This document shows, piece after piece, positions 10,827 to 29,568 of a stretch of 63,462 nt of DNA. The position numbers were made by a program, and so were the translations under genes. Position 1 is the stretch's first letter; every line of letters begins with the position of its first letter. The stretch is from a virus (Duplodnaviria; Caudoviricetes): positions 1 through 63,462 of IMG/VR virus record IMGVR_UViG_3300021185_002499; one strand, 5' to 3'. The notes under the pieces are model-generated. The model saw nothing but the letters and a program-made list of their open reading frames with translations, was not told the DNA's origin and searched no databases.

Positions 10827-10902
10827 TAAATTAAATTTTAGATTATTTTTAAATGTTTTTTGCTTTTCAGCTATATATTATATTACATTTAATTGTTTTT
10901 TT

Positions 10903-11484
10903 TTATGTTGTTTTTTTCCAATATTGTACAGGTACGCTTGAAGCTCCAACGGTTCCATCATTAATTCCTGAAGAAACAGTCCATCCTCCATAAAATCTAA
11001 TTGCATACTCTCTTCCAATAGCTGTAAACTCTTCAAGAGATATATAAGTGCTAACGGCTGCAGGCTCAAAATACGCAAATGTGCTACTAAAATTACCATC
11101 TCCATTAGTTCCTCCAGTCCCAAGCGTTAATCTAGTGAAATCAGCAGTTGATAAAGTATAGTTTGTAGATGTAGCTACATCGTTAACAGGTGTATCCGTA
11201 AGCCAACTCACTAAGTCTTTCACATAATTCAAAGCTCTCTCTTGACTATTAGCTGCCATACCTGGCCCAAATGATATATAATAATAAGGTGTTCCCACAG
11301 CGGTTAGGCCTGGGCCATTTTGCCACCAATCCTCATAAACGGATAAAGTACCGACAGGCGTATGAGTGTAATTGTATCCAAAAATAGGACCAGTGAACGG
11401 GCTTCCACCACCTTCTCCACCACCTTCTCCACCGCCACCACTAGTTACTCCATATGAACCTGGTAATATACTTGTTGGAAACAT
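10903..11484 (-). CDS. Putative fibre tip / virion protein
   Basis: Short leader then Gly linker (SGGGGEGGGEGGG); coupled to the upstream fibre gene. Confidence 0.45.
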   Translation of the reverse strand: MFPTSILPGSYGVTSGGGGEGGGEGGGSPFTGPIFGYNYTHTPVGTLSVYEDWWQNGPGLTAVGTPYYYISFGPGMAANSQERALNYVKDLVSWLTDTPVNDVATSTNYTLSTADFTRLTLGTGGTNGDGNFSSTFAYFEPAAVSTYISLEEFTAIGREYAIRFYGGWTVSSGINDGTVGASSVPVQYWKKTT

Positions 11485-12920
11485 TAAGCTTGAGATATTG
11501 TGTAAATGTATTCAGAAGCACCAATTGCTGTAATTTGAATATAATTTACTGTTGAACTTGTTTGATCTAAAGTGCCACCTAATTTAGTACCAGTAATTGT
11601 TACTGTACCAGTACCACCTGATCCTGTTACTTTTAGTATTTTTGTTTGACCAATTGTTGTGTTTGAATACGTAATAGTAGTTGCTGTTGCATCACTTGCT
11701 AATGTTATTGGAAATACTGCAGCTGTACTAAAGTCGCTTGTAGCAGTTGTTGTACTAGATGATAATGTAACTGCTGTAGCAACTGTTTTAAATTCGTCTG
11801 AAAGATGTACGAAATCAACCGAGCCGTCCACATATTGATCAGAATCTACTGAATTTACAGCCATTTTAGCATTAGTAATGTTGGCGTCTAGTATTTTTAT
11901 CGTTGTTACGGCGTTTGAAGCTATTTCATCGTCTGTAATTTCATCTAAAGTAGCAATTGCCCCTAAATCTGTTATATCTGCAGCAACATGGTTGTGATCA
12001 CCTAGCGCAACAGTTGAACTTGTAGTTCCTGTGTCTAAAAAAGCGGCAGCCCCAAAGGTATAACTTTGAGTGGAGCCTCCTGATACAACAAAATTCAGTG
12101 TATTTGTTGTTTTAGTTATATTAGATAAGAAATAATTCTGCCCTGTAGGTGTTGACCAAGAAAATGTTCCATCTCCGTCCGATGCAAGCACCTGACCGGA
12201 AGTTCCATTACCAGATATAGCTAATTTTGCGGCAGTTACTTGAGAATCTTTAATTTTTGACGTTATTACAGCGTCGGTTTTTATTTCTAATGCTGAAACC
12301 TTGTCTAATGTAGCTAAATTACCTACTCCGGTTAGCTCTGAAAGAGAATGTACATGTCCTGCAACTGCAAAATATGACGTTGACTCATATGCTGCTGAAC
12401 CTAGCGTAACTGTTATTGTTGATGTAGGTGCCCCTGTGACACTAAACTCTAAATTATTACCATTTTTAGAAATACCGTCTAAATAAAAGTTAGTGTTTGC
12501 TGTTAATGCAGCGGCCCAAGAAAAACTTCCATCACCATCTGACACTAAATACTCTCCTGCGGATCCATTACCACTTACGTTTAAATAATCTGCAGTTATA
12601 TCATTAGTAGAAAGTATGTCTGATACAGTATGTGTATGTGTTGCTGCGGAAAAAAACGATTCAGCTTTTAAAGCAGCTGTTCCAAAACTTGCTGTTAAGT
12701 CTGATAATCCATTCCTCTCTATAGTAAGTAATCCCGCAGCACTTAAAGTTAATGTTTCAGGATAATTATTTACCGATGCTCCTCCTGATAAGCCATCTTG
12801 AAAAAACGTTCTTAAATTTTCAAGTGTAAATCTTTTTGTTGAATCATCTGAACCAGAACCTAGTAGAAAATCTGAATTTTCAGGTGTTGCGTCTATTGCG
12901 TATTCCTGTATTTGTGCCAT
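11484..12920 (-). CDS. Tail fibre-like protein with internal repeats
   Basis: Two SGNG..G..L.SDGDG.FSW repeats, HxH motifs, AVTT.KI.D repeats. Confidence 0.65.
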   Translation of the reverse strand: MAQIQEYAIDATPENSDFLLGSGSDDSTKRFTLENLRTFFQDGLSGGASVNNYPETLTLSAAGLLTIERNGLSDLTASFGTAALKAESFFSAATHTHTVSDILSTNDITADYLNVSGNGSAGEYLVSDGDGSFSWAAALTANTNFYLDGISKNGNNLEFSVTGAPTSTITVTLGSAAYESTSYFAVAGHVHSLSELTGVGNLATLDKVSALEIKTDAVITSKIKDSQVTAAKLAISGNGTSGQVLASDGDGTFSWSTPTGQNYFLSNITKTTNTLNFVVSGGSTQSYTFGAAAFLDTGTTSSTVALGDHNHVAADITDLGAIATLDEITDDEIASNAVTTIKILDANITNAKMAVNSVDSDQYVDGSVDFVHLSDEFKTVATAVTLSSSTTTATSDFSTAAVFPITLASDATATTITYSNTTIGQTKILKVTGSGGTGTVTITGTKLGGTLDQTSSTVNYIQITAIGASEYIYTISQA

Positions 12921-13156
12921 TATTTAGTGTTGTTTTTCTTTGTGCCTTTTCCAAAGCCTGATCTATTTCTTGCTGCAGATACGAATGACGATGTTGTATG
13001 ATCATAGTCCATACCATCTATATTCTTACCTTCTTTTTTTGCTGCTCTGCGCTTACGTTGGTTTTCAGCCTTCATCGCACGACGCCGAGGGCTCATAGCT
13101 ACGGCCTTATCTCGGACCTTCTTACGACGCCGCGCTTCAGGAGAAAGCTTTTGCAT
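12920..13156 (-). CDS. Small basic protein with a degenerate HNH-like motif
   Basis: GMDYDH..VSAARNR; Arg/Lys-rich. Confidence 0.45.
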   Translation of the reverse strand: MQKLSPEARRRKKVRDKAVAMSPRRRAMKAENQRKRRAAKKEGKNIDGMDYDHTTSSFVSAARNRSGFGKGTKKNNTK

Positions 13157-13713
13157 TACTTTTTCTTTAATGCTTTTACACCTTTCATTTTAGCAGGTGA
13201 TTTGCCTTTATTTTTTGATTTAGCCTTAACAGTTGACTCAACTACAACCTTTGTTCCGTCAGCTAAAGTTCTATATTTAGTTCTACCAGACTTGTCTTTT
13301 GCTGTACCAGCTAATCCAGTTCCAGATCTTTTAGAGCTACCAGCTTCTATTGTAGTTTTAGTACCTATTCTACCTTCACCTTGTCTAGCTGCCATTGTGC
13401 TTTCAGATTTTCTTTCTGAAGTAGTTTTTTTCCCGGCAGAACGAGGTACTACTCTTTTTACAGTCTGCTTAGTTACTTTTTGTGTTGTACCACGACCTCC
13501 TTTTATCTTAACGTCTTTAGATTCAGCTTTGTCTATATCAACATCAACCACGTCAAGTTTCTTTTTTACAGGTGATTTGCCATATGACTTAGCTGGTGAT
13601 GATTCTGGTGCTGCTTTAATAGCATCCTGCAACTGTTGAGGTAAGTTACCCTGTTTACCCGTCAACGCTTTCATTAATGGCGTCTTCGGATTCATTTTAA
13701 ATGGTGATCCCAT
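13156..13713 (-). CDS. Lys-rich basic protein with SPxK motifs; first gene of the left late block
   Basis: SPFK, SPAK, SPVK, SPAK; highly basic. Confidence 0.55.
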   Translation of the reverse strand: MGSPFKMNPKTPLMKALTGKQGNLPQQLQDAIKAAPESSPAKSYGKSPVKKKLDVVDVDIDKAESKDVKIKGGRGTTQKVTKQTVKRVVPRSAGKKTTSERKSESTMAARQGEGRIGTKTTIEAGSSKRSGTGLAGTAKDKSGRTKYRTLADGTKVVVESTVKAKSKNKGKSPAKMKGVKALKKK

Positions 13714-13798
13714 AATTTTGTTTTAAGATTAATCTATTTTTTTTACATGTATCTTTGATAATGTTATTATCACATCATATATATAAGACTTAAAAAAG

Positions 13799-13845
13799 TG
13801 TGACGTTAGCCCCCTATTATATTATCTTAACAGGCTATTGTCGCA
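13799..13845. promoter_or_regulatory. Inverted-repeat site A
   Basis: TGTGACGTTAGC-N23-GCTATTGTCGCA; related copies at 16899 and 20112. Confidence 0.65.
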
Positions 13846-13996
13846 TTACGCTGAAATTGTTATTAGATATATAGAGGTTTTGTATTACACATAACTATTT
13901 GAGAACCAGCCACTTAACTAAAACTCATATTCTAAACCCACCCCCCTACTGATTGGTAATCAAGCACTTAAGCTTTTGCCTTTTTGTTTTTGTTTT

Positions 13997-14029
13997 TTAC
14001 AGAGTAAGCACGAGGTAGTTTGGATAATA
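13997..14029 (+). promoter_or_regulatory. Putative early promoter, copy 1
   Basis: TTACA GAGTA AGCACGA GGTAGTTT GGATAATA. Confidence 0.65.
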
Positions 14030-14074
14030 TGGTTAGGCTTTGACCTTTGTTTTGAGAAATTAATATTTTTATTT

Positions 14075-14107
14075 TTACAGAGTAAACACGAGGGATAATG
14101 GATAATA
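14075..14107 (+). promoter_or_regulatory. Putative early promoter, copy 2
   Basis: TTACA GAGTA AACACGA GGGATAAT GGATAATA; ATG at 14132. Confidence 0.8.
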
Positions 14108-14131
14108 TATATGTAACAAAAAAACAATAAT

Positions 14132-14302
14132 ATGAAAACTTTTATAACTTACAAAATTAATAATGATTTCTTTGAATTAGATTATAATAATTATAAAGAA
14201 GAAGAGAAAGAAATGTTAAACTATATTAAAGAAAATAATATAAAAGAATTTAAAAGATTAGAAAATAATAAAGGTTATAGGTTTAATGTTTTTACAAAGT
14301 AA
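14132..14302 (+). CDS. Early micro-ORF (56 aa)
   Basis: MKTFITYKINNDFF..FNVFTK; stop codon lies inside promoter copy 3. Confidence 0.6.
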   Translation: MKTFITYKINNDFFELDYNNYKEEEKEMLNYIKENNIKEFKRLENNKGYRFNVFTK

Positions 14303-14324
14303 ACACGACCTCAACTGGATAATA
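14292..14324 (+). promoter_or_regulatory. Putative early promoter, copy 3
   Basis: TTACA AAGTA AACACGA CCTCAACT GGATAATA; ATG at 14350. Confidence 0.8.
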
Positions 14325-14349
14325 TATATGAACATTAAAACACACACAC

Positions 14350-14484
14350 ATGAATAAATATCTAATAACACTTGCACTCGAAACATTACTTGAACAGGTA
14401 GTTGACTCAAGAGAAAACTCTAACGATTACAAAGATCGAATAAAAGAAATTGAAGAACAAATAAAAATAGTAAAAAAACTTTAA
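14350..14484 (+). CDS. Early micro-ORF (44 aa)
   Basis: MNKYLITLALETLLEQ..; follows promoter copy 3. Confidence 0.55.
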   Translation: MNKYLITLALETLLEQVVDSRENSNDYKDRIKEIEEQIKIVKKL

Positions 14485-14495
14485 AACATACACGC

Positions 14496-14639
14496 ATGGA
14501 ATTTAATAGACTCGAACTCGAACTACTAAGATATGCAATGGAAGACTTTGCAAACAACGATCAACATACTGAATCAAGTCAATACAAAGCATTTGAAATT
14601 GTAACTAAAATAGATAAAATGATTAACAATATTAAGTAA
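14496..14639 (+). CDS. Early micro-ORF (47 aa)
   Basis: MEFNRLELELLRYAMEDF.. Confidence 0.55.
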   Translation: MEFNRLELELLRYAMEDFANNDQHTESSQYKAFEIVTKIDKMINNIK

Positions 14640-14717
14640 AATAAGTTAATTACACACATACACACACTGAACTACACCTATACCACTAAAAATACTAATA
14701 AATAAAACACATACCTT

Positions 14718-14894
14718 ATGACTAGTGAATTAAGTAAAAGAATAGCTAAACAAAATGCTAAAACTGAAAGACAAATGGGTTTCTATACTCTTGGTATGAA
14801 AAACGTTACACGAGTTACCTTCTCACGTAATGCTCAATGGAACCAAATAGACACAACTAAGGTTTACTATGCTCAAACCAAATTACAAGCTTAA
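14718..14894 (+). CDS. Early micro-ORF (58 aa)
   Basis: MTSELSKRIAKQ..QTKLQA; stop codon lies inside promoter copy 4. Confidence 0.6.
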   Translation: MTSELSKRIAKQNAKTERQMGFYTLGMKNVTRVTFSRNAQWNQIDTTKVYYAQTKLQA

Positions 14895-14915
14895 TACGTG
14901 TTTAAACGGATAATA
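14883..14915 (+). promoter_or_regulatory. Putative early promoter, copy 4
   Basis: TTACA AGCTT AATACGT GTTTAAAC GGATAATA; ATG at 14935. Confidence 0.75.
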
Positions 14916-14934
14916 TAAATGTAAAACAACTAAT

Positions 14935-15108
14935 ATGAAATACAATACTTCACTACATAACTACTTTAATCAACACAAATCACTTGGCAAACTATTCAAT
15001 GATATGAATGACGTAGACGTCGCTATTGATCCTGACCACAACACAAAAATGTACTTAAGAGGTTTGGGTATGAGTGAAGAAAAGATAAACAAAATAATAA
15101 ATAAATAA
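14935..15108 (+). CDS. Early micro-ORF (57 aa)
   Basis: MKYNTSLHNYF.. Confidence 0.55.
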   Translation: MKYNTSLHNYFNQHKSLGKLFNDMNDVDVAIDPDHNTKMYLRGLGMSEEKINKIINK

Positions 15109-15109
15109 T

Positions 15110-15283
15110 ATGTTACAACAACTACACGAAATACATGGCAAACTAGATATGCTACAAGACTTAAAAATACAAGGTCTAGGATTATCACTCGATCAACAAC
15201 AACAACTACTTATCATTCACCAACAATTGCTCGATCAAAAGTTTCAACTAGAAAGACAAATTAAAAAAGAATATATACTATGA
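15110..15283 (+). CDS. Early micro-ORF (57 aa, Q/L-rich helical)
   Basis: MLQQLHEIHGKLDML..; coupled to neighbours. Confidence 0.5.
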   Translation: MLQQLHEIHGKLDMLQDLKIQGLGLSLDQQQQLLIIHQQLLDQKFQLERQIKKEYIL

Positions 15284-15387
15284 TGAATCAATACTACTTA
15301 GAAGAAATGCTTGCTAATACAAGCTACACTGAAGAACAGATAACTGAAATGGAAAACTGGGAAATTGAAATGCACTTAGGATTATGA
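15280..15387 (+). CDS. Early micro-ORF (35 aa, acidic)
   Basis: MMNQYYLEEML..; ATGA overlaps at both ends. Confidence 0.5.
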   Translation: MMNQYYLEEMLANTSYTEEQITEMENWEIEMHLGL

Positions 15388-15530
15388 AAACTAAAGATAA
15401 ATTATACGACTTACGTCAAGCTATTGATGACCTTGTTGCGATCGGTCCAGACTATGCACACTTTATGAATGCACAAATTGCACACAAAAATTTAAAGAAG
15501 ATTAAAAAACTATTAGAATACGTAGGCTAA
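15384..15530 (+). CDS. Early micro-ORF (48 aa)
   Basis: MKTKDKLYDLRQAIDDL.. Confidence 0.55.
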   Translation: MKTKDKLYDLRQAIDDLVAIGPDYAHFMNAQIAHKNLKKIKKLLEYVG

Positions 15531-15543
15531 ATGCTATACACAA

Positions 15544-15576
15544 TTACAAGCCTAACACGAATAATATCGGATAATA
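15544..15576 (+). promoter_or_regulatory. Putative early promoter, copy 5
   Basis: TTACA AGCCT AACACGA ATAATATC GGATAATA; ATG at 15603. Confidence 0.8.
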
Positions 15577-15602
15577 TATATGAACATTAAAACAAAACAA
15601 AT

Positions 15603-15803
15603 ATGAAAACATTTGACAGATACAAACAAAACTTAAAACAAGTCGGTAACGACATCTATTCTTACGATACTGTTGTTGCACAAATAAAAGATAACAAGCT
15701 TCATTTGATGAACTGGCATGTACCCGGCGTTGGATCACACAGCGTTACAACGTCGAAGCATGTTAACTATGTAGCACAGCAACTTAATCTTGAAATAGCA
15801 TGA
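15603..15803 (+). CDS. Early hypothetical protein
   Basis: IYSYDTVVA..SVTTSKHVNY; follows promoter copy 5. Confidence 0.65.
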   Translation: MKTFDRYKQNLKQVGNDIYSYDTVVAQIKDNKLHLMNWHVPGVGSHSVTTSKHVNYVAQQLNLEIA

Positions 15804-16006
15804 AGAAATTAATATTACAAAGACATGACATTTATAGTCATTACTACAAGGATTTTAATGATGGAAAATTTTACGAGGTTAATGCCTTTGACGTTGATCC
15901 AATAAGCAATAGAATTGTAAATAAAGATTTTAAAGATTCAGATTTCAGCAAAAGAAAAGAAATTAAAGATGAATTTAAAAACCCAAAATTTATAGAAACA
16001 ATATAA
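15800..16006 (+). CDS. Early hypothetical protein
   Basis: ATGA-coupled ORF. Confidence 0.55.
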   Translation: MKKLILQRHDIYSHYYKDFNDGKFYEVNAFDVDPISNRIVNKDFKDSDFSKRKEIKDEFKNPKFIETI

Positions 16007-16010
16007 AAGC

Positions 16011-16211
16011 ATGACAAACACATGGATATTTTATGGTAACAACCATAGCGGAATTAAAACAATTCACTACATTAAACAATGTAAACGTCCTGAAGCGACA
16101 AGTGAATACAAAGAAATGATGCACTTATTAGAAAACAATACTTATTACACAACAGGATATATGACTAGTAAAGCATGGAATAAAGAAAACCAATATATAA
16201 AAGTAATATGA
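16011..16211 (+). CDS. Early hypothetical protein
   Basis: ORF in a tightly packed run. Confidence 0.55.
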   Translation: MTNTWIFYGNNHSGIKTIHYIKQCKRPEATSEYKEMMHLLENNTYYTTGYMTSKAWNKENQYIKVI

Positions 16212-16387
16212 ACAAACTAGTACAACAAATAGCAGATGAGTGTATTGATATAATTGATGAACAAATTGACAATACAATCCACTGGGAGTTAGATGTTAAT
16301 GACCTTGAAGGTGATGATCTAAGCAAATTAGAATTAAAAATAAAACAACAAATATTATTTACATTAATTAAAAAAGTAACAAAATGA
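16208..16387 (+). CDS. Early micro-ORF (59 aa, acidic)
   Basis: MNKLVQQIADECIDIIDEQ..; ATGA overlaps at both ends. Confidence 0.55.
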   Translation: MNKLVQQIADECIDIIDEQIDNTIHWELDVNDLEGDDLSKLELKIKQQILFTLIKKVTK

Positions 16388-16704
16388 ACGACATTTACAC
16401 ACAACTAGCACAAATTTTAAACGTATCTAAAATTACTGAAGACTATACAACCACCGCTGATCTACAAATTAGCGAATATATGACTGCTGATAGCTATGAC
16501 GTACACGTTATGACCAACGAACCCATGTCACTAATGTGGGATACTGATGTGTATCAATATCAACCATCATTCAACGACATTATCGATCGCATTAAAGATT
16601 TAGACGAAGATGCTATTGTATATGTAAGCGATTTTGAAACATACTTACCAGAATATGAGGTTGATGATTATCTTGAACAACACGAAGAAGAATTACAAGA
16701 TTAA
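16384..16704 (+). CDS. Highly acidic early protein
   Basis: D/E- and Tyr-rich, 106 aa; stop codon lies inside promoter copy 6. Confidence 0.65.
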   Translation: MNDIYTQLAQILNVSKITEDYTTTADLQISEYMTADSYDVHVMTNEPMSLMWDTDVYQYQPSFNDIIDRIKDLDEDAIVYVSDFETYLPEYEVDDYLEQHEEELQD

Positions 16705-16725
16705 CACGAAGTATAACGGATAATA
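16693..16725 (+). promoter_or_regulatory. Putative early promoter, copy 6
   Basis: TTACA AGATT AACACGA AGTATAAC GGATAATA; ATG at 16752. Confidence 0.8.
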
Positions 16726-16751
16726 CTAACGAACAACAAACACAAAATAAT

Positions 16752-16898
16752 ATGACCTTACGAGACGTAAATATATTAGACAAAATAAATCAACACAAAA
16801 CGCATACAATGCGTGAGAAAACTTTTATTGCTAAAAATAAATATCAAATAAAGTTACCAACTGAAACATTAAATGATTACTTTTACAATAATAAATAA
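16752..16898 (+). CDS. Early micro-ORF (48 aa)
   Basis: MTLRDVNILDKINQH.. Confidence 0.5.
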   Translation: MTLRDVNILDKINQHKTHTMREKTFIAKNKYQIKLPTETLNDYFYNNK

Positions 16899-16936
16899 CA
16901 CGACAATAGCAATTTAAATAACAGGCTAACGTCACA
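16899..16936. promoter_or_regulatory. Inverted-repeat site B (arms match site A in reverse orientation)
   Basis: CACGACAATAGC-N14-GCTAACGTCACA; intergenic. Confidence 0.6.
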
Positions 16937-16950
16937 TAAAACAAATTGAT

Positions 16951-17100
16951 ATGGGCAAACTAACCGTAACATATAAAGGAAAACAAATTGAATACTTAAT
17001 CAATACAGAAGTTGAAGAGCATGTAACTATGAAAGCTATAAATGATATATTAAAATACTTCCCTAAAGATGCACCTGTAGATTTTGTTGAATTATATTAA
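16951..17100 (+). CDS. Early micro-ORF (49 aa)
   Basis: MGKLTVTYKGKQIEY.. Confidence 0.55.
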   Translation: MGKLTVTYKGKQIEYLINTEVEEHVTMKAINDILKYFPKDAPVDFVELY

Positions 17101-17101
17101 A

Positions 17102-17134
17102 CTACAAGATAAACACGAAGCATAACGGATAATA
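17102..17134 (+). promoter_or_regulatory. Putative early promoter, copy 7
   Basis: CTACA AGATA AACACGA AGCATAAC GGATAATA; ATG at 17162. Confidence 0.8.
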
Positions 17135-17161
17135 ATAACGAACAACAAACAATTAAATATT

Positions 17162-17392
17162 ATGAACACACAATTACAAAACTATTTAGACTTACAAAAC
17201 AAAATTGCTCGCATTGAAAAATTAACTAATGCTAGCTGGGATACAAAATATATGCTTGAAAAGTTTGTACCCACTGTATGGAACGACGGCTTTGACGTAC
17301 AAGATATAATTGACTATATAACAGTTAAACTTCACGAGGTAATAACAAAGCTTGAAAACGAAAAACAAATTGAAACAACAAATACAAAATAA
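17162..17392 (+). CDS. Early hypothetical protein
   Basis: Follows promoter copy 7. Confidence 0.6.
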   Translation: MNTQLQNYLDLQNKIARIEKLTNASWDTKYMLEKFVPTVWNDGFDVQDIIDYITVKLHEVITKLENEKQIETTNTK

Positions 17393-17393
17393 T

Positions 17394-17540
17394 ATGGCTG
17401 GTAATAAATTTGACACACAGTTTGCTATACACAAGCCAAAGTTTTATAGCTTAACATTCAAAGATCTATATGACGAAGAACGTACGATGACTGGCACACC
17501 AAGTCAAGTTATAAACTATATACTTAATCAACAATTATAA
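17394..17540 (+). CDS. Early micro-ORF (start moved to ATG 17394)
   Basis: MAGNKFDTQFAIHK.. Confidence 0.5.
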   Translation: MAGNKFDTQFAIHKPKFYSLTFKDLYDEERTMTGTPSQVINYILNQQL

Positions 17541-17543
17541 CAA

Positions 17544-17842
17544 AAATGTTATGAGAACCGTGTGGCAAAGCATTGTCCAGAGAAGCATAACATTTATGAT
17601 GGTCCTCTACCCCGTTGGCTTCGGCGAGGATAAGGAGTAATTACCTGAAGAACCCGCACAAGGGACACCATCATTATAATATTTTTTGTGTGTTTGTATG
17701 ACCAAAAAACCGTCGTACCTCTGCAGGGGTGAATAAAACCGGCGGTGAGGTCTTCACACAAATTAAAATCTACAGGGGATTACCGACGGGTAAATATAAT
17801 CTCGAGATGAAGTAAGGGTAATGTTCCTTCTCCTCTGTACCA
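17544..17842 (+). ncRNA. Candidate structured non-coding RNA block (four stem-closed domains)
   Basis: GC-richer gap between genes. Closing stems: AAATGTTATG/CATAACATTT, ATGATGGT/ACCATCAT, TTTGTGTG/CACACAAA, TACAGGGGA/TCCTCTGTA. G-U wobbles favour the plus strand. Confidence 0.65.
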
Positions 17843-17871
17843 TATTAAATAATAACTTTAAAACAAACACT

Positions 17872-18036
17872 ATGACTAAACAATACAAAAACAAAAAAGC
17901 TTTAATCATATCAGACTCTTCTAAATTTCCTGAAGACTTCTGGAACTACTGGGTAAATCCTATTGTAGGTTATTATATACCTAGCACAAGATCAAAACAA
18001 TATAAACGTAAAGATAAAACAAATGAATTATTATGA
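17872..18036 (+). CDS. Hypothetical protein (start moved to ATG 17872)
   Basis: MTKQYKNK..FWNYWVNPIVGY; A/C-rich leader. Confidence 0.55.
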   Translation: MTKQYKNKKALIISDSSKFPEDFWNYWVNPIVGYYIPSTRSKQYKRKDKTNELL

Positions 18037-18170
18037 TTGTAGATATACGCTCTAACAAATCAGTATTTATAACTATAGGCACTGAAACATATTATATAGA
18101 TAACTCAACTAATGAACATATTATGGAACACTGGCAAACAGATCCTGAACACACTAATCCCTTATACTAA
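18033..18170 (+). CDS. Micro-ORF (45 aa)
   Basis: MIVDIRSNKSVFITIGTETYYIDNSTNE..; coupled at both ends. Confidence 0.55.
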   Translation: MIVDIRSNKSVFITIGTETYYIDNSTNEHIMEHWQTDPEHTNPLY

Positions 18171-18370
18171 TGACTTATAAAGAACTAAAAGAATACGTTG
18201 CTAATAACAAAAAAGCAAAAGCAATTGAATGGAAAAAAGAAATTGCTATACACGGACACTGTAAGCCTTTCACTGACAAAGAATATAAACAAAACAAAGA
18301 CTTAATATTTACTGGTAAAAAATCACACACTAATAAAATAGCAAGTACTAAACTATGGCAAACCTATTAA
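18170..18370 (+). CDS. Hypothetical protein
   Basis: Coupled ORF. Confidence 0.55.
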   Translation: MTYKELKEYVANNKKAKAIEWKKEIAIHGHCKPFTDKEYKQNKDLIFTGKKSHTNKIASTKLWQTY

Positions 18371-18543
18371 CTACATCCGACGACCTATGGGCTTGTATTA
18401 ATGCAATCCTTGATGATCAATTTGATAGTAACAAACTATCTTATGCTGAATCTGTAGCTTTACGTAAATTGTATGACGGAGCTAAAGAATTAAATGAAAT
18501 GAATGACAAAATTGAAAAACTTTTATATAACCAATACAAATAA
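18355..18543 (+). CDS. Hypothetical protein
   Basis: Coupled ORF. Confidence 0.55.
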   Translation: MANLLTTSDDLWACINAILDDQFDSNKLSYAESVALRKLYDGAKELNEMNDKIEKLLYNQYK

Positions 18544-18546
18544 ATT

Positions 18547-18759
18547 ATGAATAAAATTAAAAAAGAAACAATTAAAGTAAAATCAACAGCAATTAAAAAA
18601 GCTAAATACAACCACAGAAAAAAAATATTATCAATTAAATTTCATAATGGTGATATATATTACTATCCTGAAATTGAACCATTTATATTTGAAGGATTAA
18701 AAGCATCTGACTCTGTAGGTAAATTTCTAAATAAATATATTATTCATGCAAACAAATAA
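18547..18759 (+). CDS. KTSC domain protein
   Basis: VKSTAIK..Y..LSIKFHNGDIYYY..ASDSVGKFLNKYI. Confidence 0.85.
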   Translation: MNKIKKETIKVKSTAIKKAKYNHRKKILSIKFHNGDIYYYPEIEPFIFEGLKASDSVGKFLNKYIIHANK

Positions 18760-18961
18760 AATAAATGCACTAAATAAAATACACACTAAACTTATCAATT
18801 GTACTAGAAAAGTACGTGAAGCTGAAGAGTTTAAAGGTTTCTGGTCTGATGATGATGCAGATGATGTTGAATCATCCAGGCAAATGCTACTAACCAGTGC
18901 TATTAAAGAACAAGAAATATATGAATATATTTATAAACTAATAAAAAATGACATTAAGTAA
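18746..18961 (+). CDS. Hypothetical protein
   Basis: Coupled ORF. Confidence 0.5.
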   Translation: MQTNKINALNKIHTKLINCTRKVREAEEFKGFWSDDDADDVESSRQMLLTSAIKEQEIYEYIYKLIKNDIK

Positions 18962-19229
18962 CGAAGAAATTGAACGCATTGCAGAATTAATATTTAAAAA
19001 AATATTAGATAAACAAGCTGCACTTGAAAAAGAATCTGAACACATATATCATATATATGACGATGTAGGTAATGTATCCGTTGTTAATGAATTAGCATTC
19101 TTACAAGTTGAATTAGATAGATGCAATGAATTAAAAGATAAATACGTTAATGAAGAGCAGTTTGAAAAAGCTATGCTACTTAAAGATAAGATAGCAGAAT
19201 TAGAATTAAAAATTAAAAACATAAAATAA
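18948..19229 (+). CDS. UvrB/UvrC (UVR) motif protein
   Basis: C-terminal EEQFEKAMLLKDKIAEL. Confidence 0.65.
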   Translation: MTLSNEEIERIAELIFKKILDKQAALEKESEHIYHIYDDVGNVSVVNELAFLQVELDRCNELKDKYVNEEQFEKAMLLKDKIAELELKIKNIK

Positions 19230-19639
19230 TGATAAAAAAAACAATACCCACAATATCTTTATCAGCTTTAAAACAATTAGTTGAAAAAGAATTAAAGATA
19301 AAAGACATAGCAGATAAGTGTAGATCAAGAGAGTTGGCTCAAGCAAGATTTATATACTATAAATTAAGTAAAAAGTTTCAACCCTTATCTAGCTTAGCAT
19401 CTATAGGTAAGCACGTTAAGCGTGATCACGCTACGGTTATTAATGGTTTAAACAAATGGGATAGTGAAATTATATATGACCCTTATATGGAAAAAGTATA
19501 TGATAGGATTAGCCTAACATTAGTTGAGTCTGCTACACTAATAGATCAAGATGAGAGTGCTTTATCACTACAAGCCTTAGAGTCAAGGATATCTGATTTA
19601 GAAGCTTCTTTAATTAATTATAAGTTACAAACCGCATAA
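19229..19639 (+). CDS. DnaA domain IV-like HTH protein
   Basis: RSRELAQAR..SLASIG..RDHATVING. Confidence 0.8.
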   Translation: MIKKTIPTISLSALKQLVEKELKIKDIADKCRSRELAQARFIYYKLSKKFQPLSSLASIGKHVKRDHATVINGLNKWDSEIIYDPYMEKVYDRISLTLVESATLIDQDESALSLQALESRISDLEASLINYKLQTA

Positions 19640-19641
19640 TT

Positions 19642-20010
19642 ATGCTATACACACACATTTTTGTATTATATTTGTTCTCTTTGTTTTCACAAGAAACAAC
19701 AGTTACAGCCACAATATATCACGCTGTAGCGGAACAAACGGATTCAACACCAGACACAACTGCAAGTATGTTTAAACTTGATTTAAATAACCCACGTAAG
19801 CATAATATAATAGCTGTGTCAAGAGATCTTGAAGCACTTGGTTTTAAATTAGGAACTAAAGTAATAGTTACGGGTGCAGGTGATTTAGACGGTGTATGGA
19901 ATATAGAAGATAGGATGAACAAACGTTTCACAAAACGTATTGATTTCCTTGTTAACACATCACTTAAGGGTGGTAAATGGGAAAACGTAAAGATTAAAAC
20001 AATCAAATAA
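19642..20010 (+). CDS. Exported 3D-domain (double-psi beta-barrel) peptidoglycan-acting protein
   Basis: Hydrophobic N-terminus; VTATIY..QTDSTP..TAS..IAVSRDL..GTKV..ED..RIDFL. Confidence 0.8.
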   Translation: MLYTHIFVLYLFSLFSQETTVTATIYHAVAEQTDSTPDTTASMFKLDLNNPRKHNIIAVSRDLEALGFKLGTKVIVTGAGDLDGVWNIEDRMNKRFTKRIDFLVNTSLKGGKWENVKIKTIK

Positions 20011-20111
20011 TGGGAAGAACAAAAGATTTGCTAATGCAAATGAATGAAGCGGAATTAAATAATTTAGAAATTATTTACGAGGTTATCCAACCAATCGATA
20101 ATAGTTCGAAG

Positions 20112-20158
20112 TGTGACGATAGTCAGTTATAATGTTATAGTAATAAGCTAATGTCACA
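20112..20158. promoter_or_regulatory. Inverted-repeat site C, overlapping the start codon of the HTH gene
   Basis: TGTGACGATAGT-N23-GCTAATGTCACA; the ATG at 20151 lies in the right arm. Confidence 0.65.
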
Positions 20159-20765
20159 TAGAAATACAAAATACCTTGATAATAAAAGAATAGTGTACAG
20201 GAGAAATCCTATTACAGATGTACCTACTGTATCTTTTGATTGGGGTAATTTTTATAAAGACGGTACTTATGAATGTTATGAGCTATTCAGAAGTAAAGCT
20301 AAGATTACAACTTATAAATCACTAAAGTGGCATGTATTAGTATTATGGTACTTAAACCCTTCTTTAAATAAAGAAGACTTTGAAGAGCTAGTATATTTTA
20401 TAGCAGATAAAGAAAATGGATTTGTTACATTCTTTACGCCTGAAAAAGTTATAAAAGATATAGTAAGCACTGTTATGCTACATGATTTAGAAGATCCACC
20501 TAAAAACAAACTCAGAAAAATAATTTTTAAAGATAATTCAGGTTTACTTATTTCACAAAAGATGTCTATAGTTGGGACATTGATTGGAAAAACAAAAAAA
20601 GCAGATGCTAGTGATATTTACGAAACAATGTTGTATCTTCACGATGGTAATGAAAAGATTACTATAAAAAAGATAGCAAATGTGTTAGATGTATCTACTA
20701 GAACCATATACCGAAACATGGATGCTAAGTTAAACCAAGAAAAAGAATTATTAAATGAGTTATGA
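20151..20765 (+). CDS. DNA-binding protein with C-terminal HTH (regulator or replication initiator)
   Basis: ITIKKIANVLDVSTRTIYRNM. Confidence 0.7.
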   Translation: MSHRNTKYLDNKRIVYRRNPITDVPTVSFDWGNFYKDGTYECYELFRSKAKITTYKSLKWHVLVLWYLNPSLNKEDFEELVYFIADKENGFVTFFTPEKVIKDIVSTVMLHDLEDPPKNKLRKIIFKDNSGLLISQKMSIVGTLIGKTKKADASDIYETMLYLHDGNEKITIKKIANVLDVSTRTIYRNMDAKLNQEKELLNEL

Positions 20766-21517
20766 AAAAATATAACATACAGAACTATGTAAGATATAAA
20801 ACAGACACCACAGAATGCATTGAATCAATACAAGAAAAAGATTACAATGAATACGAAAGAAACGAGCTGATAACAATATTGATGCCGCTCGTTGAAACTA
20901 TAGCTAGAAAATTCTCCACAGGAGAACAAGCCTCAGGCATACTTGACATTACAGACTTAATACAAGAAGGAGCCGTTGGATTAATATATGCTGTAGATAA
21001 AATTGAATGGGATGTAATAAATTCATCCACTGACCCTGAAAAAACTCTTAAATCATTTGTTTCAAAAAGAATTAAGGGTGCAATAAGGAGAGCTATTGAT
21101 ATAAATAGAGGTAACATACGTATTCCTGAGCATAAGTTAAATGAAATGCGAAAAAATACAGGAGAAGATAAACGTATTGTAGAAATGTTCTTTAATAGTA
21201 TATTTTTAAGCTTAGACAACACATTAAATGAAGACGGTTCTAGTTATGATGTGATTGATTCTAGTAAAGATTATAATATAGATTTAATGAATAAATACCT
21301 TTTAGGTATCATGGAAACTTTCTTAGATATAAGAGAGTATGATGTTCTTAGAATGAGTTACGGTTTAGACTGTGATAAGATGTCGGCTAAAGATATTGCT
21401 GAAAAGTTAAATATTAAAGGTACAGCATCATTTGTAAGAATATCACAAATAAAAAGAGAAGCTATTGATAAGCTAATCGAAAGTGTAGATCCATCACAAG
21501 TTATTGATTGGCAATAA
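20762..21517 (+). CDS. Sigma-70-family RNA polymerase sigma factor
   Basis: Region 2 DLIQEGAVGLIYAVDK..RIKGAIRRAI..IRIPEH; region 4 REYDVLRMSYGL..DIAEKLNI..RISQIKREAIDKL. Confidence 0.9.
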   Translation: MKKYNIQNYVRYKTDTTECIESIQEKDYNEYERNELITILMPLVETIARKFSTGEQASGILDITDLIQEGAVGLIYAVDKIEWDVINSSTDPEKTLKSFVSKRIKGAIRRAIDINRGNIRIPEHKLNEMRKNTGEDKRIVEMFFNSIFLSLDNTLNEDGSSYDVIDSSKDYNIDLMNKYLLGIMETFLDIREYDVLRMSYGLDCDKMSAKDIAEKLNIKGTASFVRISQIKREAIDKLIESVDPSQVIDWQ

Positions 21518-21572
21518 TTTATGAATCTATATCCATTTAAGAAATGAGTATTAACAAATAATATAATATAAT

Positions 21573-22133
21573 ATGACAATTCAAGAAAAATTAAGTTTAA
21601 TTCAGCAAGAGTTCAAAGCTAAAAAGTCGAGATATAATTCTTTTGGTAAATATAATTTTAGATCTGCTGAAGACATTTTAGAAGCACTTAAACCTATCAA
21701 TGAAAAGTATAAAGTATATTTTACTATTGAAGAGCGTGTTAGTGAAATAGCAGGCTTACCCATCATTCATTCTGTAGCAACTATGCATGATGGTGATTTA
21801 AGTATCTCTGCTACAGCTATAGTAGGTGTTGATTTAAATCAAAAAGGTATGCAAGTACCACAACAATTTGGATCAGCATCTTCTTACGGTAAAAAATATT
21901 CATTAGGTAATTTATTACTTATTGATGACACAGCAGATGCGGATGCTACTAATTCAGGTGCTGCTAAAAATAAACCTAAACTACTAAAAGGCTCAGAAAA
22001 CTGGGGTAAAGCTTTAAGCTATATTAATTCTGGAGGTGATATGAGTGCTATATTGAATAAATATACTGTTTCAATAGAGGACAAGTCAGAATTAAAATCC
22101 TATGAAGTAAAAGCTCGTAGTAAAAAATCTTAA
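21573..22133 (+). CDS. ERF-family ssDNA annealing protein
   Basis: KSRYNSFGKYNFRSAEDILEALKP..GSASSYGKKYSL..IDDTADAD. Confidence 0.88.
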   Translation: MTIQEKLSLIQQEFKAKKSRYNSFGKYNFRSAEDILEALKPINEKYKVYFTIEERVSEIAGLPIIHSVATMHDGDLSISATAIVGVDLNQKGMQVPQQFGSASSYGKKYSLGNLLLIDDTADADATNSGAAKNKPKLLKGSENWGKALSYINSGGDMSAILNKYTVSIEDKSELKSYEVKARSKKS

Positions 22134-22134
22134 A

Positions 22135-22866
22135 ATGACTAAAGATAAAATATTAAATAAATTAAGAGACGATGCACACTATTATGGGGACTTTGGCAAA
22201 CAATATCTTAGTAATTCTGACATTCAATCTTTAATTAATAACCCATTAGACTTCAAGAAGCCGATGCAACCAACCTCGGCTTTCTTGGTGGGTGGGTATT
22301 TTCACACTTGTATACTTGAACCAGATAAATTAAAGAAGTATAAAGTTGTGCAGGCCTCAACGAGGAACACAAAAGCATATAAAGAAATATCAGAAGGAGA
22401 GCTTTGTTTATTACAGCACGAGGTTGATATGATTGAGGTGCTTAGAGATAAGATGTTTGAAAATGAAATTTGTAGAGATTTTATACAAAATGAAACAAAC
22501 GATTACGAACAACCAGGTATTGTTGAATTAGAAGGCAATATGTGGAAAGGAAAAGCAGATATTATAAACCATGACGAAAAATTAATTATTGATTTAAAAA
22601 CAACAAACGATATTTCAAAATTTAAATGGAGTGCTTCTCGCTATAATTATGATAGCCAGGCTTACATTTATAGAAAAATGTTTGGATATGATTTTTTATT
22701 CTTAGTAATAGATAAAAATACGCAGCAAATTGGTATCTTTGATTGTTCAGACAGATTCTATGAGTCAGGAGCAGACAAAGTAAAGAAAGCAACTGAAGCT
22801 TACGAATTATTTTACAAAACCGAAGGGTTTGATCCTTCACAATATTTTTTAACTAAAACACTATAA
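22135..22866 (+). CDS. PD-(D/E)XK exonuclease (RecE/DUF3799-like)
   Basis: LSNSDI..G..FH..ILEP..KGKAD..IIDLKTT..Y..QAYIY. Confidence 0.8.
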   Translation: MTKDKILNKLRDDAHYYGDFGKQYLSNSDIQSLINNPLDFKKPMQPTSAFLVGGYFHTCILEPDKLKKYKVVQASTRNTKAYKEISEGELCLLQHEVDMIEVLRDKMFENEICRDFIQNETNDYEQPGIVELEGNMWKGKADIINHDEKLIIDLKTTNDISKFKWSASRYNYDSQAYIYRKMFGYDFLFLVIDKNTQQIGIFDCSDRFYESGADKVKKATEAYELFYKTEGFDPSQYFLTKTL

Positions 22867-22867
22867 A

Positions 22868-23188
22868 ATGGCAGGAATTTTAAAAGGAAGCATTAATCTT
22901 AGTGCAATCCCAAAAGACAAAATCATTCCAGGTAAGAAAGGACAGTACTTACCTGTAACAATTACTTTTAATGATGAAGTAGATCAATTTGGTAATCAAG
23001 GACCTATCATCGTTGAACAAACTAAAGAAGAAAGAGATAGCAAAGCGGCTAAGACCTATTTAGGAAACATTAAAATTGTTTGGACTAATGGTCAAGTTGA
23101 AGCAGCGCCAAGACAAGACCAAGGTATGCAACAACAAATTAATGCTGCAGTGCCTCAACCACCTTCAACACCAGATTTACCATTCTAA
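22868..23188 (+). CDS. Putative ssDNA-binding protein
   Basis: C-terminal DLPF tail after a Q/P linker; located between the exonuclease and primase genes. Confidence 0.6.
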   Translation: MAGILKGSINLSAIPKDKIIPGKKGQYLPVTITFNDEVDQFGNQGPIIVEQTKEERDSKAAKTYLGNIKIVWTNGQVEAAPRQDQGMQQQINAAVPQPPSTPDLPF

Positions 23189-23257
23189 TGGATGAGGATT
23201 ATATAAGCATTGTAAAAGATGATAATGAACAAATAACTTTAATAGAAGATTAATTAA

Positions 23258-26036: not shown

Positions 26037-26121
26037 GTTGTGGTTTAAAAAAACAAATTATCCCGACAAATGGCTTAGTGCCAAAAGCAAAGAAATAATT
26101 AATAAAATAAAACAAAAACAA

Positions 26122-29555: not shown

Positions 29556-29568
29556 ATGCAAAACAAAA

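What the first reader, a model, noticed from the sequence alone, without database searches (positions are those of the whole stretch)
17544..17842. About 300-nt block of four abutting structured RNA domains
Seen: D1 17544-17595 is closed by a perfect 10-bp stem. D2 17596-17674 is closed by 8 bp and starts at the very next base. D3 17685-17762 is a nested rod (TTTGTGTG/CACACAAA, GACC/GGTC, ACCGTCG/CGGCGGT, TACCTC-TGCA-GGGGTG). D4 17771-17839 is closed by 9 bp. Several mismatches are G-U wobbles on the plus strand, the block is GC-richer than its flanks, and it lies downstream of promoter copy 7. I cannot assign a known family. Inference: an early phage ncRNA or an array of processed small RNAs (decoy, antitoxin mimic, ribozyme or aptamer).
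Basis: partly seen in the sequence, partly recalled or inferred. Interest (0 to 1): 0.8.

Follow-up and report, generated by a model that had tools for sequence, protein, structure and literature searches.

The report
Mosaic array of phage small-RNA cassettes
The 300-base gap between two early genes of this marine flavobacterial phage holds four separate, tRNA-sized folded RNA genes of unknown families that related phages shuffle, gain and lose like cassettes, often beside a tRNA and a tmRNA-like decoy.

Summary
Window 17544-17839 is ORF-poor, richer in G+C than its flanks, and folds on the + strand into the four stem-closed domains described.

It is not one 300-nt RNA. It is four independent units.
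- In 75 related phage loci the same families occur in different orders and subsets. D3 precedes D4 in 8 loci and D4 precedes D3 in 13.
- They sit in tight arrays that also hold a tRNA-Met gene (17 of 75) and a tmRNA-like tRNA-like domain without a tag frame (24 of 75).

Covariation supports three structures:
- D3: 7 of 18 pairs change on both sides.
- D4: 11 of 17 pairs.
- D2: 4 of 24 pairs.
- D1 rests on one divergent homologue.

No Rfam family, tRNA finder, cultured phage or Flavobacteriaceae genome that I searched matches them.

D2, D3 and D4 each keep one self-complementary single-stranded element.

Best reading: small RNAs co-transcribed early and acting in trans, probably as decoys. That function is inferred, not shown.

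The parts
17100..17164 (+). Seventh and last copy of the early promoter-like repeat; the presumed start of the transcript that runs through the block
   Evidence: Repeat families D1 and D2 of the repeat finder together give seven copies between 13988 and 17164. No + strand terminator-like site in 13000-21000. Promoter activity is inferred.
17394..17540 (+). Conserved 48-aa ORF that ends just before D1; the anchor used to find the same slot in relatives
   Evidence: Alignment A1 of 10 homologues, 38-98% identical to the window's protein. Used. No Pfam family.
17544..17595 (+). Cassette D1: a 10-bp closing stem, a conserved internal loop and an inner 5-bp hairpin
   Evidence: Fold z = -2.88. 11 nhmmer hits in 72 slots, 6 of them distinct sequences. 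The divergent L135 copy keeps both helices with different letters and folds the same way, z = -4.03. L012 has a shortened form.
17596..17674 (+). Cassette D2: a 79-nt four-way junction (cloverleaf-like) with an 8-bp closing stem, a long arm ending in a 7-nt loop, a 3-bp arm with an 8-nt loop, and a short arm
   Evidence: Model R3 matches 28 of 75 sources, once each. 98.0% of cells paired, against 30-58% for slid controls; 4 of 24 pairs change on both sides. Mean column identity 91%.
17638..17643 (+). Self-complementary hexamer in the 8-nt loop of D2 (TAATTA here, TAGCTA in most relatives)
   Evidence: Columns 46-51 of A4. The central pair is GC in 16 rows, AU in 3 and not paired in 2, of 21 distinct rows. 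Adjacent bases cannot pair within one hairpin.
17685..17762 (+). Cassette D3: a rod of three stacked helices with two conserved A-rich bulges (core 17700-17752), plus an outer 8-bp stem found only in this sub-clade
   Evidence: Model R2 matches 47 times in 75 sources. 90.8% of cells paired, against 31-44% slid; 7 of 18 pairs and 69 cells change on both sides (hand alignment). z = -2.96 on the + strand and -1.29 on the - strand.
17722..17725 (+). Self-complementary apical tetraloop of D3 (TGCA)
   Evidence: 39 of 40 distinct rows carry TGCA, CGCG or CTAG at the apex. The exception is the L152 chimera.
17771..17839 (+). Cassette D4: a three-way junction with a 9-bp closing stem, a hairpin with a GACG loop and a hairpin with an 8-nt loop
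   Evidence: Model R1 matches 35 times in 75 sources, in two subtypes. 93.2% of cells paired, against 40-52% slid; 11 of 17 pairs and 97 cells change on both sides.
17800..17807 (+). Self-complementary octamer in the single-stranded joint of D4 (TCTCGAGA)
   Evidence: 25 of 26 distinct rows carry TCTCGAGA, ACTCGAGT or ACTAGT here. The outer pair switches A-U to U-A in 5 of 24 rows.
17842..17871 (+). Leader-like stretch in front of the next ORF (ATG at 17872; ORF 17872-18036)
   Evidence: Resembles the downstream half of the early promoter repeat (repeat family D3). Conserved in front of the next gene in relatives.

Best explanation
The block is a tight array of four independent small structured RNA genes (cassettes D1-D4, 52-79 nt each) on the + strand. 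It lies inside an early transcription unit of a marine flavobacterial podophage.

Shown:
- Each cassette is a separate, conserved unit of evolution.
- D2, D3 and D4 have structures supported by covariation. D1 is supported by one divergent homologue.
- Related phages shuffle, gain and lose these cassettes at the same kind of locus. There they sit a few bases from a tRNA-Met gene and from a tmRNA-like tRNA-like domain that has no tag frame.
- The cassettes were found only in phage sequence.

Inferred:
- The array is read through from the last early promoter copy.
- It is cut in the short A/U-rich linkers. In relatives, the enzymes that trim tRNAs would do part of this. The result would be stable 50-80-nt RNAs whose paired ends protect them.
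- These RNAs act in trans on host factors as accessory take-over or counter-defence decoys. A tRNA-like-domain-only RNA has been reported to inhibit tmRNA, perhaps by binding up SmpB, which is the model for this idea.
- The single self-complementary element kept in D2, D3 and D4 suggests that each works as a homodimer, or is read by a dimeric partner.
For: Modularity
- nhmmer and covariance models find the four families in different orders and subsets.
- D1-D2-D3-D4 as in the window occurs in 2 of 75 loci. D3 precedes D4 in 8 and D4 precedes D3 in 13.
- Cassette identity to the window is uncoupled from identity of the neighbouring ORF. For L154 the ORF is 73% identical but D2 is 94%. For L011 the ORF is 95% but D2 is 84%.

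Structure
- D3, D4, D2, D1.

Strand
- Cells that pair only on the + strand (G-U) against cells that would pair only on the - strand (A-C): D3 72 vs 24; D2 29 vs 4.
- The tRNA-Met and tmRNA-like genes of the arrays lie on the same strand.

Not coding
- No + strand ORF of 30 aa or more lies wholly inside the block.
- Indels of 1-2 nt occur within the families.

Context
- 17 of 75 arrays hold tRNA-Met and 24 of 75 hold the tmRNA-like element.
- Rfam's tmRNA model matches that element end to end at 26-33 bits (gathering score 47) in 8 of the 20 loci scanned.

Expression
- One metatranscriptome holds identical contigs over most of the block. Three others, each from a different study, hold contigs over 17465-17654.

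Transcription unit
- No + strand terminator-like site between the promoter copy and the genes beyond the block.
Against: - No RNA ends, processing or abundance are shown. The RNA data are contigs, and their ends fall where the assembly graph branches, so they say nothing about RNA termini. DNA carried over into those libraries is not excluded.
- The window's own array has neither the tRNA nor the tmRNA-like element, so the analogy rests on relatives.
- No host RNA resembling a cassette was found that a decoy could be imitating. A decoy need not resemble one at that level.
- D2 varies little, so only 4 of its 24 pairs are informative. D2 and D4 fold no better than many shuffles.
- D4 shows no G-U excess (11 vs 15 cells).
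- The homologous sequences are related to each other, so the shuffle controls overstate significance, as the counting tool itself warns.
- Self-complementary elements would also suit DNA-level recognition.
Confidence: 0.55

Rival explanations
1. The cassettes are processing devices: self-cleaving ribozymes of new classes, or guides for host RNases. They would cut the early polycistronic transcript and mature the neighbouring tRNA and tmRNA-like RNAs, as HDV-like theta ribozymes do beside phage tRNAs.
For: - In relatives the cassettes lie 5-9 nt from the tRNA-Met and tmRNA-like genes.
- Small ribozymes directly beside tRNAs occur in phages whose predicted hosts are about 90% Bacteroidota (PMC10879173, sections 7 and 13 read).
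- Junction and loop nucleotides are strongly conserved while the stems covary.
Against: - No Rfam ribozyme family matches at E up to 10 in the window's block, or up to 0.5 in 20 array loci.
- The hammerhead-like CUGACGA in one D4 subtype lies inside a helix supported by covariation, and the window's subtype lacks it.
- The window's array has no tRNA to mature.
- Four unrelated folds for a single cutting job is not economical.
Confidence: 0.12
2. The cassettes are cis-acting mRNA elements. They would be stabilisers or insulators between cistrons, or regulators of the translation or transcription of the flanking early genes.
For: - The block lies between two + strand ORFs with no terminator.
- Stem-closed domains can block exonucleases (general knowledge).
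Against: - The same downstream gene follows quite different cassette sets, and the window has a different downstream gene behind cassettes seen elsewhere.
- Some arrays follow a different upstream gene.
- Loop and junction sequences are conserved far beyond what a stability element needs.
- The cassettes share their arrays with tRNA genes.
Confidence: 0.12
3. The cassettes work as DNA. They would be single-strand hairpins or cruciforms serving replication, recombination or packaging, binding sites for dimeric proteins, or miniature mobile elements with inverted ends.
For: - Every cassette is bounded by an inverted repeat and moves as a unit.
- D2, D3 and D4 each hold a true palindrome of 4-8 bp.
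- Replication genes lie 2-6 kb downstream.
- G-T pairs also stabilise single-stranded DNA.
Against: - Three- and four-way junctions with covarying short helices and conserved loops are typical of RNA.
- The cassettes are co-oriented and interleaved with tRNA genes.
- No target-site duplication is visible at the window's cassette edges (read).
- Each cassette has a single copy in the window.
- No transposase or integrase is found beside it.
- The sequence is present in RNA libraries.
Confidence: 0.08
4. The block is one multi-domain RNA of about 300 nt that functions as a whole.
For: - The four domains abut; D1 and D2 have no spacer between them.
- L105 has the same order as the window.
Against: Only 2 of 75 loci have this composition and order. 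Every domain occurs without the others, and D3 and D4 occur in both orders.
Confidence: 0.05

Closest known systems
GOLLD and ROOL RNAs (large phage and prophage ncRNAs near tRNA islands)
   Same: - Phage-encoded structured RNAs of unknown function, often beside tRNA genes. One GOLLD was found downstream of a Met-tRNA.
- They self-assemble through kissing loops and A-minor contacts (passages of bioRxiv 10.1101/2024.12.08.627333).
- Here the cassette families sit beside tRNA-Met in relatives, have A-rich bulges, and keep self-complementary loops.
   Different: - Those RNAs are single molecules hundreds of nucleotides long.
- These are 52-79-nt units in a mosaic array.
- Rfam's models do not match.
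- Self-association here is only inferred.
tRNA-like-domain-only tmRNA relative of mycobacteriophage DS6A
   Same: [quoted passage not shown] - The tmRNA-like element in 24 of 75 related arrays has the same make-up: a 7-bp acceptor stem (with a G-U pair at the third position in most copies I read), a T arm and no tag frame.
   Different: - That element is absent from the window.
- D1-D4 have no tRNA-like or tmRNA-like features.
- It serves as a model for the decoy idea, not as a family for the block.
Theta (minimal HDV-like) ribozymes beside phage tRNAs
   Same: Small structured RNAs set directly against tRNA genes in phages whose predicted hosts are about 90% Bacteroidota (PMC10879173, abstract and sections 7 and 13).
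   Different: - No HDV-type match was found.
- The covariation-supported folds are a rod, a three-way junction and a four-way junction, not a nested double pseudoknot.
- The paper's own search descriptor could not be run here.
Candidate structured RNAs catalogued from IMG/VR intergenic regions (Fremin et al. 2023)
   Same: 8,495 unnamed candidates, 67 nt long on average, were predicted from the collection this window belongs to (PMC10690425, abstract and passages). D2-D4 may be among them.
   Different: The parts of the main text I read do not mention cassette arrays, shuffling or the tRNA/tmRNA-like context.
Stable RNAs 'species 1 and 2' in the tRNA gene cluster of phage T4
   Same: Non-tRNA small stable RNAs co-transcribed and processed together with phage tRNAs. 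This is recalled from memory; a search for it found nothing relevant.
   Different: A different phage, host and sequences. No comparison was made.

Membership tests
tRNA (Rfam RF00005; ARAGORN) | Cloverleaf with a 7-bp acceptor stem, a 7-nt anticodon loop and a T arm with the conserved T-loop sequence | tested here: not met
   ARAGORN finds 0 genes in the window. No tRNA match at E up to 10 in 17300-18100. D2 is a 79-nt four-way junction, but its arm lengths and loops differ from a tRNA's. The same tools do find tRNA-Met in relatives.
tmRNA, or a tmRNA tRNA-like domain alone | Acceptor stem with a G-U pair at the third position, a T arm, and a match to both ends of RF00023 | tested here: not met
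   No RF00023 match in the window. The element in relatives does match, at 26-33 bits against a gathering score of 47, in 8 of 20 loci scanned.
HDV-like / theta ribozyme | Nested double pseudoknot with a catalytic C, and a cleavage site at the 3' end of a tRNA | tested here: inconclusive
   No match to any Rfam family of this type, and the supported folds are unknotted. The published RNArobo descriptor was not available, and cleavage cannot be tested here.
Hammerhead ribozyme | Unpaired CUGANGA and GAAA core between three helices | tested here: not met
   CUGACGA occurs only in one D4 subtype and lies within helix P2, which is 100% paired with 3 of 4 pairs covarying. The window has CCGACGG at that place. 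No Rfam match.
CRISPR-repeat mimic (RNA anti-CRISPR) | Close likeness to a CRISPR repeat of the host | tested here: not met
   The only CRISPR-repeat model hits are weak (E 1.4 and 3.4) and fall at the block's 3' edge (17837-17864, mostly leader) and upstream of it (17324-17359), not on a cassette core. In 401 Flavobacteriaceae genomes, 3 weak matches fall on the A/T-rich linker only. The true host is unknown, so this is not exhaustive.
GOLLD / ROOL type phage RNA | A large single RNA matching RF01998, RF03087 or similar; near tRNA islands; homo-oligomeric | tested here: not met
   No Rfam match, and the units are 52-79 nt. The context near tRNAs is met in relatives. Oligomerisation cannot be tested with these tools.
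Intrinsic terminator | G+C-rich hairpin followed by a run of T | tested here: not met
   No + strand terminator-like site in 13000-21000.
Miniature inverted-repeat element / integron attC site | Terminal inverted repeats with a target-site duplication, or attC core sites beside an integrase; many copies | tested here: not met
   One copy of each cassette in the window. No flanking duplication is seen in the sequence. No integrase or transposase among the neighbours examined.

The most novel reading that the evidence does not exclude
The locus is an RNA 'toolkit'. It would be a hypervariable array in which marine flavobacterial phages collect and exchange tRNA-sized RNA decoys, each a homodimer-forming fold that binds up a different host RNA-binding or defence protein. 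The tmRNA-like element (acting against SmpB and trans-translation) would be the one member whose target can be guessed. D1-D4 would then be four new classes of RNA-only host take-over or counter-defence effectors.
Probability: 0.25. Interest if true: 0.85.

Novelty: new variant of a known kind. Interest (0 to 1): 0.62.

Why it matters
Phage accessory functions are almost always looked for among proteins. Here a clade of marine phages devotes an early, fast-evolving locus to RNA alone. The primase-helicase scan confirmed 373 related viral contigs. The locus holds at least eleven recognisable cassette families, three of them with folds supported by covariation, interleaved with a tRNA and a tmRNA-like decoy.

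If the cassettes act in trans, they are new classes of small viral RNA effectors in a host group (Bacteroidota) whose RNA biology is poorly known.

The self-complementary elements give a simple hypothesis that can be tested at the bench: do these RNAs dimerise?

Even if the function stays unknown, D2, D3 and D4 are ready-made new RNA families with alignments, structures and models.

Tried and rejected
- **Known RNA families.** Rfam at gathering scores found nothing in the whole window or in six related loci. With permissive thresholds, only chance-level hits appeared.
- **tRNA and tmRNA finders.** ARAGORN found nothing in the window or in 12 related loci.
- **Cultured phages.** No blastn match for 17400-18000 or for 10000-30000. 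For a related array, only its tRNA-Met part matched.
- **Exact D2 pattern in viral contigs.** 6 loci, all close relatives.
- **D3 pattern in bacterial genome contigs.** All are chance by profile scoring; the best, L265, matches only partly.
- **Host copies.** Models for D3, D4 and D2 each gave 0 of 151 Flavobacteriaceae genomes. BLAST of the block against 401 genomes gave 3 weak hits, on the A/T-rich linker only. These genomes are samples, and no positive-control genome exists.
- **Hammerhead reading of D4.** Rejected; see the membership tests.
- **A recalled likeness of D4 to the 5' part of E. coli tmRNA.** Three flavobacterial tmRNAs fetched for comparison do not share the motif. The 9-nt stretch that D4 shares with some tmRNA-like elements is not conserved in either family. 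Dropped.
- **Restriction-site avoidance as the reason for the palindromes.** Their counts in the window are unremarkable.
- **Contig ends as RNA ends.** A 77-nt RNA-library contig spans D2 almost exactly. But neighbouring contigs overlap it by about 28 nt at points where the variants branch, so the ends reflect the assembly.
- **Contig depths.** Depths are higher over 17465-17654 than elsewhere. They cannot rank expression, because that conserved stretch pools reads from many strains.
- **RNAalifold on the first D3 alignment.** It recovered only 9 pairs. The full structure was then named by hand and counted.
- **Realignment of the trimmed D3 core (A5).** It shifted one helix and was not used.
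- **Literature searches.** Searches found no description of these cassettes or of such arrays. The library is incomplete, and the supplement of PMC10690425 could not be read.

Full report
**What the window is.** The window is a complete IMG/VR virus record of 63,462 bp.
- Its portal protein is 44% identical to that of Flavobacterium phage vB_FspP_elemo. All 87 matching cultured phages fall below 60% identity. Of these, 86 are named for Flavobacterium, Cellulophaga, Tenacibaculum or Maribacter, and 1 is an unclassified Caudoviricetes record.
- It encodes a primase-helicase, a ribonucleotide reductase and a GroEL-like protein.
- It also encodes weak, below-cut-off matches to sigma-70 regions 2 and 4, an ERF recombinase and a DnaA-type HTH protein.
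- A 3004-aa virion protein carries a crAss 'muzzle' C-terminal domain.
- Genes at 13.9-31.5 kb run on the + strand.
- A promoter-like repeat occurs seven times between 13988 and 17164.

**Observation.** The stretch 17541-17871 lies between a 48-aa ORF that ends at 17540 and an ORF that starts at 17872.
- No + strand ORF of 30 aa or more lies wholly inside the block. The nominal 71-aa frame from 17821 is an upstream extension of the next gene.
- G+C rises to 0.445.
The four domains stay separate when the whole block is folded.
- Folding energy alone is significant for D1 and D3 only. z-scores are -2.88 for D1, -0.98 for D2, -2.96 for D3 and -1.56 for D4. The whole block gives -1.90 on the + strand and -1.06 on the - strand.
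- No + strand terminator-like site occurs in 13000-21000.

**Known families.**
- Rfam finds nothing at gathering scores and only chance-level hits at E up to 10.
- ARAGORN finds no tRNA or tmRNA.
- Cultured phages have no similar DNA.

**Homologues and modularity.**
- A scan with the primase-helicase confirmed 373 related viral contigs, of which 80 were fetched.
- nhmmer with the block found parts of it in five of them, already in other arrangements: D1-D2-D4-D3 in L012, D2-D4 in L006 and D2-D3 in L011.
- I then used the conserved upstream ORF (alignment A1) as an anchor. This gave 14 viral loci and 80 metagenome loci, which reduce to 72 distinct downstream 'slots'.
- I added three arrays found through a D3 pattern, making 75 loci.
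- 58 of the 75 hold at least one recognised element. The 17 without one are mostly the most distant relatives or short contigs. In five of them model R2 found D3 further away.
- Composition varies widely.
  - D1-D2-D3-D4 as in the window occurs in 2 loci.
  - Other arrangements include D1-D2-D4 with a further cassette G, D2-D3, D2-D4-D3, D3-D4 followed by the tmRNA-like element, and tmRNA-like element-(D1)-D4-D3-tRNA-Met.
  - D3 precedes D4 in 8 loci and follows it in 13.
- Besides D1-D4 I recognised cassette families E, G, H, I, K and M.
- Units are separated by 0-20 nt.
- Identity of a cassette to the window's copy does not follow identity of the neighbouring ORF. This points to exchange by recombination together with strong constraint.

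**Structures.**
- *D3.*
  - The hand-named structure on a MAFFT alignment of 32 sequences gave 90.1% of cells paired, against 33-46% when the partners were slid. 7 of 18 pairs and 48 cells changed on both sides, and 0 of 500 shuffles reached the covariation score.
  - After realignment with model R2 (47 matches, 40 distinct rows) the figures were 90.8%, 7 of 18 pairs and 69 cells.
  - The fold is a rod of three helices with two conserved A-rich bulges. The window adds an outer 8-bp stem that many relatives lack.
- *D4.*
  - Iterated nhmmer joined it to a second subtype.
  - With model R1 (35 matches, 26 distinct rows), 93.2% of cells pair, against 40-52% slid. 11 of 17 pairs and 97 cells changed on both sides.
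  - Both hairpins covary at 3 of 4 pairs.
- *D2.*
  - It is 91% identical on average across 22 sequences.
  - 98% of cells pair, against 30-58% slid, but only 4 of 24 pairs are informative.
- *D1.*
  - It has six distinct sequences.
  - The one divergent copy (L135) keeps the closing stem and the inner hairpin through different letters, and folds alike.
- *Caveats.* The sequences are related to each other, so the shuffle controls are generous. The realigned alignments lean towards the model.

**Strand and coding.**
- G-U cells outnumber A-C cells 72 to 24 in D3 and 29 to 4 in D2. D4 shows no bias (11 to 15).
- The tRNA-Met and tmRNA-like genes in the arrays are on the same strand as the cassettes.
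- The - strand ORFs across the block (55, 48 and 32 aa) cannot be conserved, given the rearrangements and the 1-2-nt indels.

**Self-complementary elements.** Each of D2, D3 and D4 keeps exactly one self-complementary element that is single-stranded in the supported fold.
- *D3.* The apical tetraloop is UGCA, CGCG or CUAG in 39 of 40 distinct rows.
- *D4.* The joint between its hairpins holds UCUCGAGA, ACUCGAGU or ACUAGU in 25 of 26 rows.
- *D2.* The 8-nt loop holds UAAUUA or UAGCUA. The central pair is G-C in 16 rows, A-U in 3 and not paired in 2, of 21 distinct rows.
- These elements cannot pair within one molecule. The other loops of the cassettes are not self-complementary.
- I read this as a sign of homodimer formation or of recognition by a dimeric partner. 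This is inference.

**Context in relatives.**
- 17 of 75 arrays end with a tRNA-Met (CAU) gene.
- 24 of 75 hold an element of 75-85 nt with these parts:
  - a 7-bp acceptor stem, with a G-U pair at the third position in most copies I read;
  - a hairpin with a conserved 20-nt loop;
  - a canonical T arm;
  - no tag frame and no encoded CCA.
- Rfam's tmRNA model aligns both of its ends to this element at 26-33 bits in 8 of 20 loci scanned, below the gathering score of 47. ARAGORN does not call it.
- Its layout parallels the ends of three flavobacterial tmRNAs fetched for comparison.
- The window itself has neither element.

**Distribution.** The cassettes were found only in this phage clade.
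- The D3 pattern hit 13 viral contigs, 7 of them true by profile scoring.
- Its 120 hits in bacterial genome contigs are chance.
- Models R2, R1 and R3 each matched 0 of 151 Flavobacteriaceae genomes.
- BLAST of the block against 401 such genomes matched only the linker, in 3.
- No cultured phage carries them.

**Expression.**
- Of 23 runs listed, one metatranscriptome holds 75% of the sampled words.
- Its contigs are identical to the window over 17208-17776 and 17789-18400, at depth 3-5.
- Three other metatranscriptomes, each from a different study, hold contigs over 17465-17654. These include a variant without D1.
- This shows presence in RNA libraries. It does not show transcription, RNA ends or levels.

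**Interpretation.**
- The data fit an array of independent small RNA genes, organised like a phage tRNA cluster. It sits in an accessory, rapidly reshuffled early locus.
- The only member whose role can be guessed is the tmRNA-like element, a likely decoy.
- By extension, I favour trans-acting decoy or take-over RNAs for D1-D4. They would be released by cuts in the A/U-rich linkers and protected by their terminal helices.
- The rivals remain open: processing ribozymes, cis elements, DNA-level elements and a single large RNA. They are listed with their tests.

**Comparison with what is known.** The nearest precedents are:
- GOLLD and ROOL, which are phage RNAs near tRNA islands that self-assemble;
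- theta ribozymes beside phage tRNAs;
- the DS6A tRNA-like-domain-only RNA;
- phage-encoded tmRNAs in 2.3% of phage genomes (passages of PMC9004378).

A catalogue of 8,495 candidate structured RNAs from IMG/VR may already list D2-D4 under anonymous numbers (PMC10690425).

Seven literature searches found no description of these families or of a mosaic RNA-cassette array.

I therefore rate the finding a new variant of a known kind.

Noticed in passing
L162:2319-2397; also L040:3823-3908, L045, L108, L111, L118, L135, L141, L143, L148, L151, L165, L311, L313, L314: A tmRNA-like tRNA-like domain without a tag frame. It has a 7-bp acceptor stem (G-U at the third pair in most copies I read), a hairpin with a conserved 20-nt loop, a T arm and no CCA. 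It is present in 24 of 75 related arrays and absent from the window. Rfam's tmRNA model matches its two ends below the gathering score. In L160 another cassette (K) replaces its hairpin.
   Followed up: partly
L098:1883-1955, L174:2641-2713, L143:994-1066 and 14 other loci: A tRNA-Met (CAU) gene ends 17 of 75 arrays, 7-9 nt after D3. Some copies have three G-C pairs at the foot of the anticodon stem, and Rfam's alignment shows a mismatch at the first acceptor pair. I recall both as features of initiator tRNAs; I did not analyse this.
   Followed up: no
window 13988-17164: Seven copies of a repeat of about 45-65 nt lie in front of early + strand ORFs. It does not resemble the usual Bacteroidota promoter as I recall it. 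It may serve a phage-specific or virion-borne RNA polymerase. The 2120-aa protein (32489-38851) matches no family.
   Followed up: no
window 13796-13846 and 20109-20159 (partial third copy 16919-16937): A 51-nt repeat, 75% identical between its two full copies, brackets the early gene block. The first copy lies where the - strand and + strand genes diverge. The second lies just before the HTH and sigma-like genes. It may be a regulatory site.
   Followed up: no
L152:2074-2159: A chimera of the 5' half of D4 and the 3' half of D3, joined at a 9-nt stretch that the two share. It looks like a deletion between neighbouring cassettes, and it shows one way the arrays change.
   Followed up: partly
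L045:3814-3875, L040:3751-3819, L154, L098, L158, L313: At least six further cassette families (E, G, H, I, K, M) occur in related arrays. None matched Rfam at E up to 0.5. Unassigned gaps of 40-165 nt remain in several arrays, for example L140 between D3 and the tRNA.
   Followed up: partly
window 17685-17697 and the same place in L011, L012, L040, L045, L089, L006: A T/G-rich 13-mer precedes cassettes of different families (D3, E, G, H) in the D2-bearing sub-clade. In the window it forms the outer stem of D3. In other loci it has no pairing partner. In the window it is not more frequent than chance (15 near-matches against 11.9 expected).
   Followed up: partly
window 41193-50207: The 3004-aa virion protein carries a crAss-type 'muzzle' C-terminal domain (Pfam PF25729, E = 4e-11). 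This hints at a distant structural link between this 63-kb podophage group and crAss-like phages.
   Followed up: no
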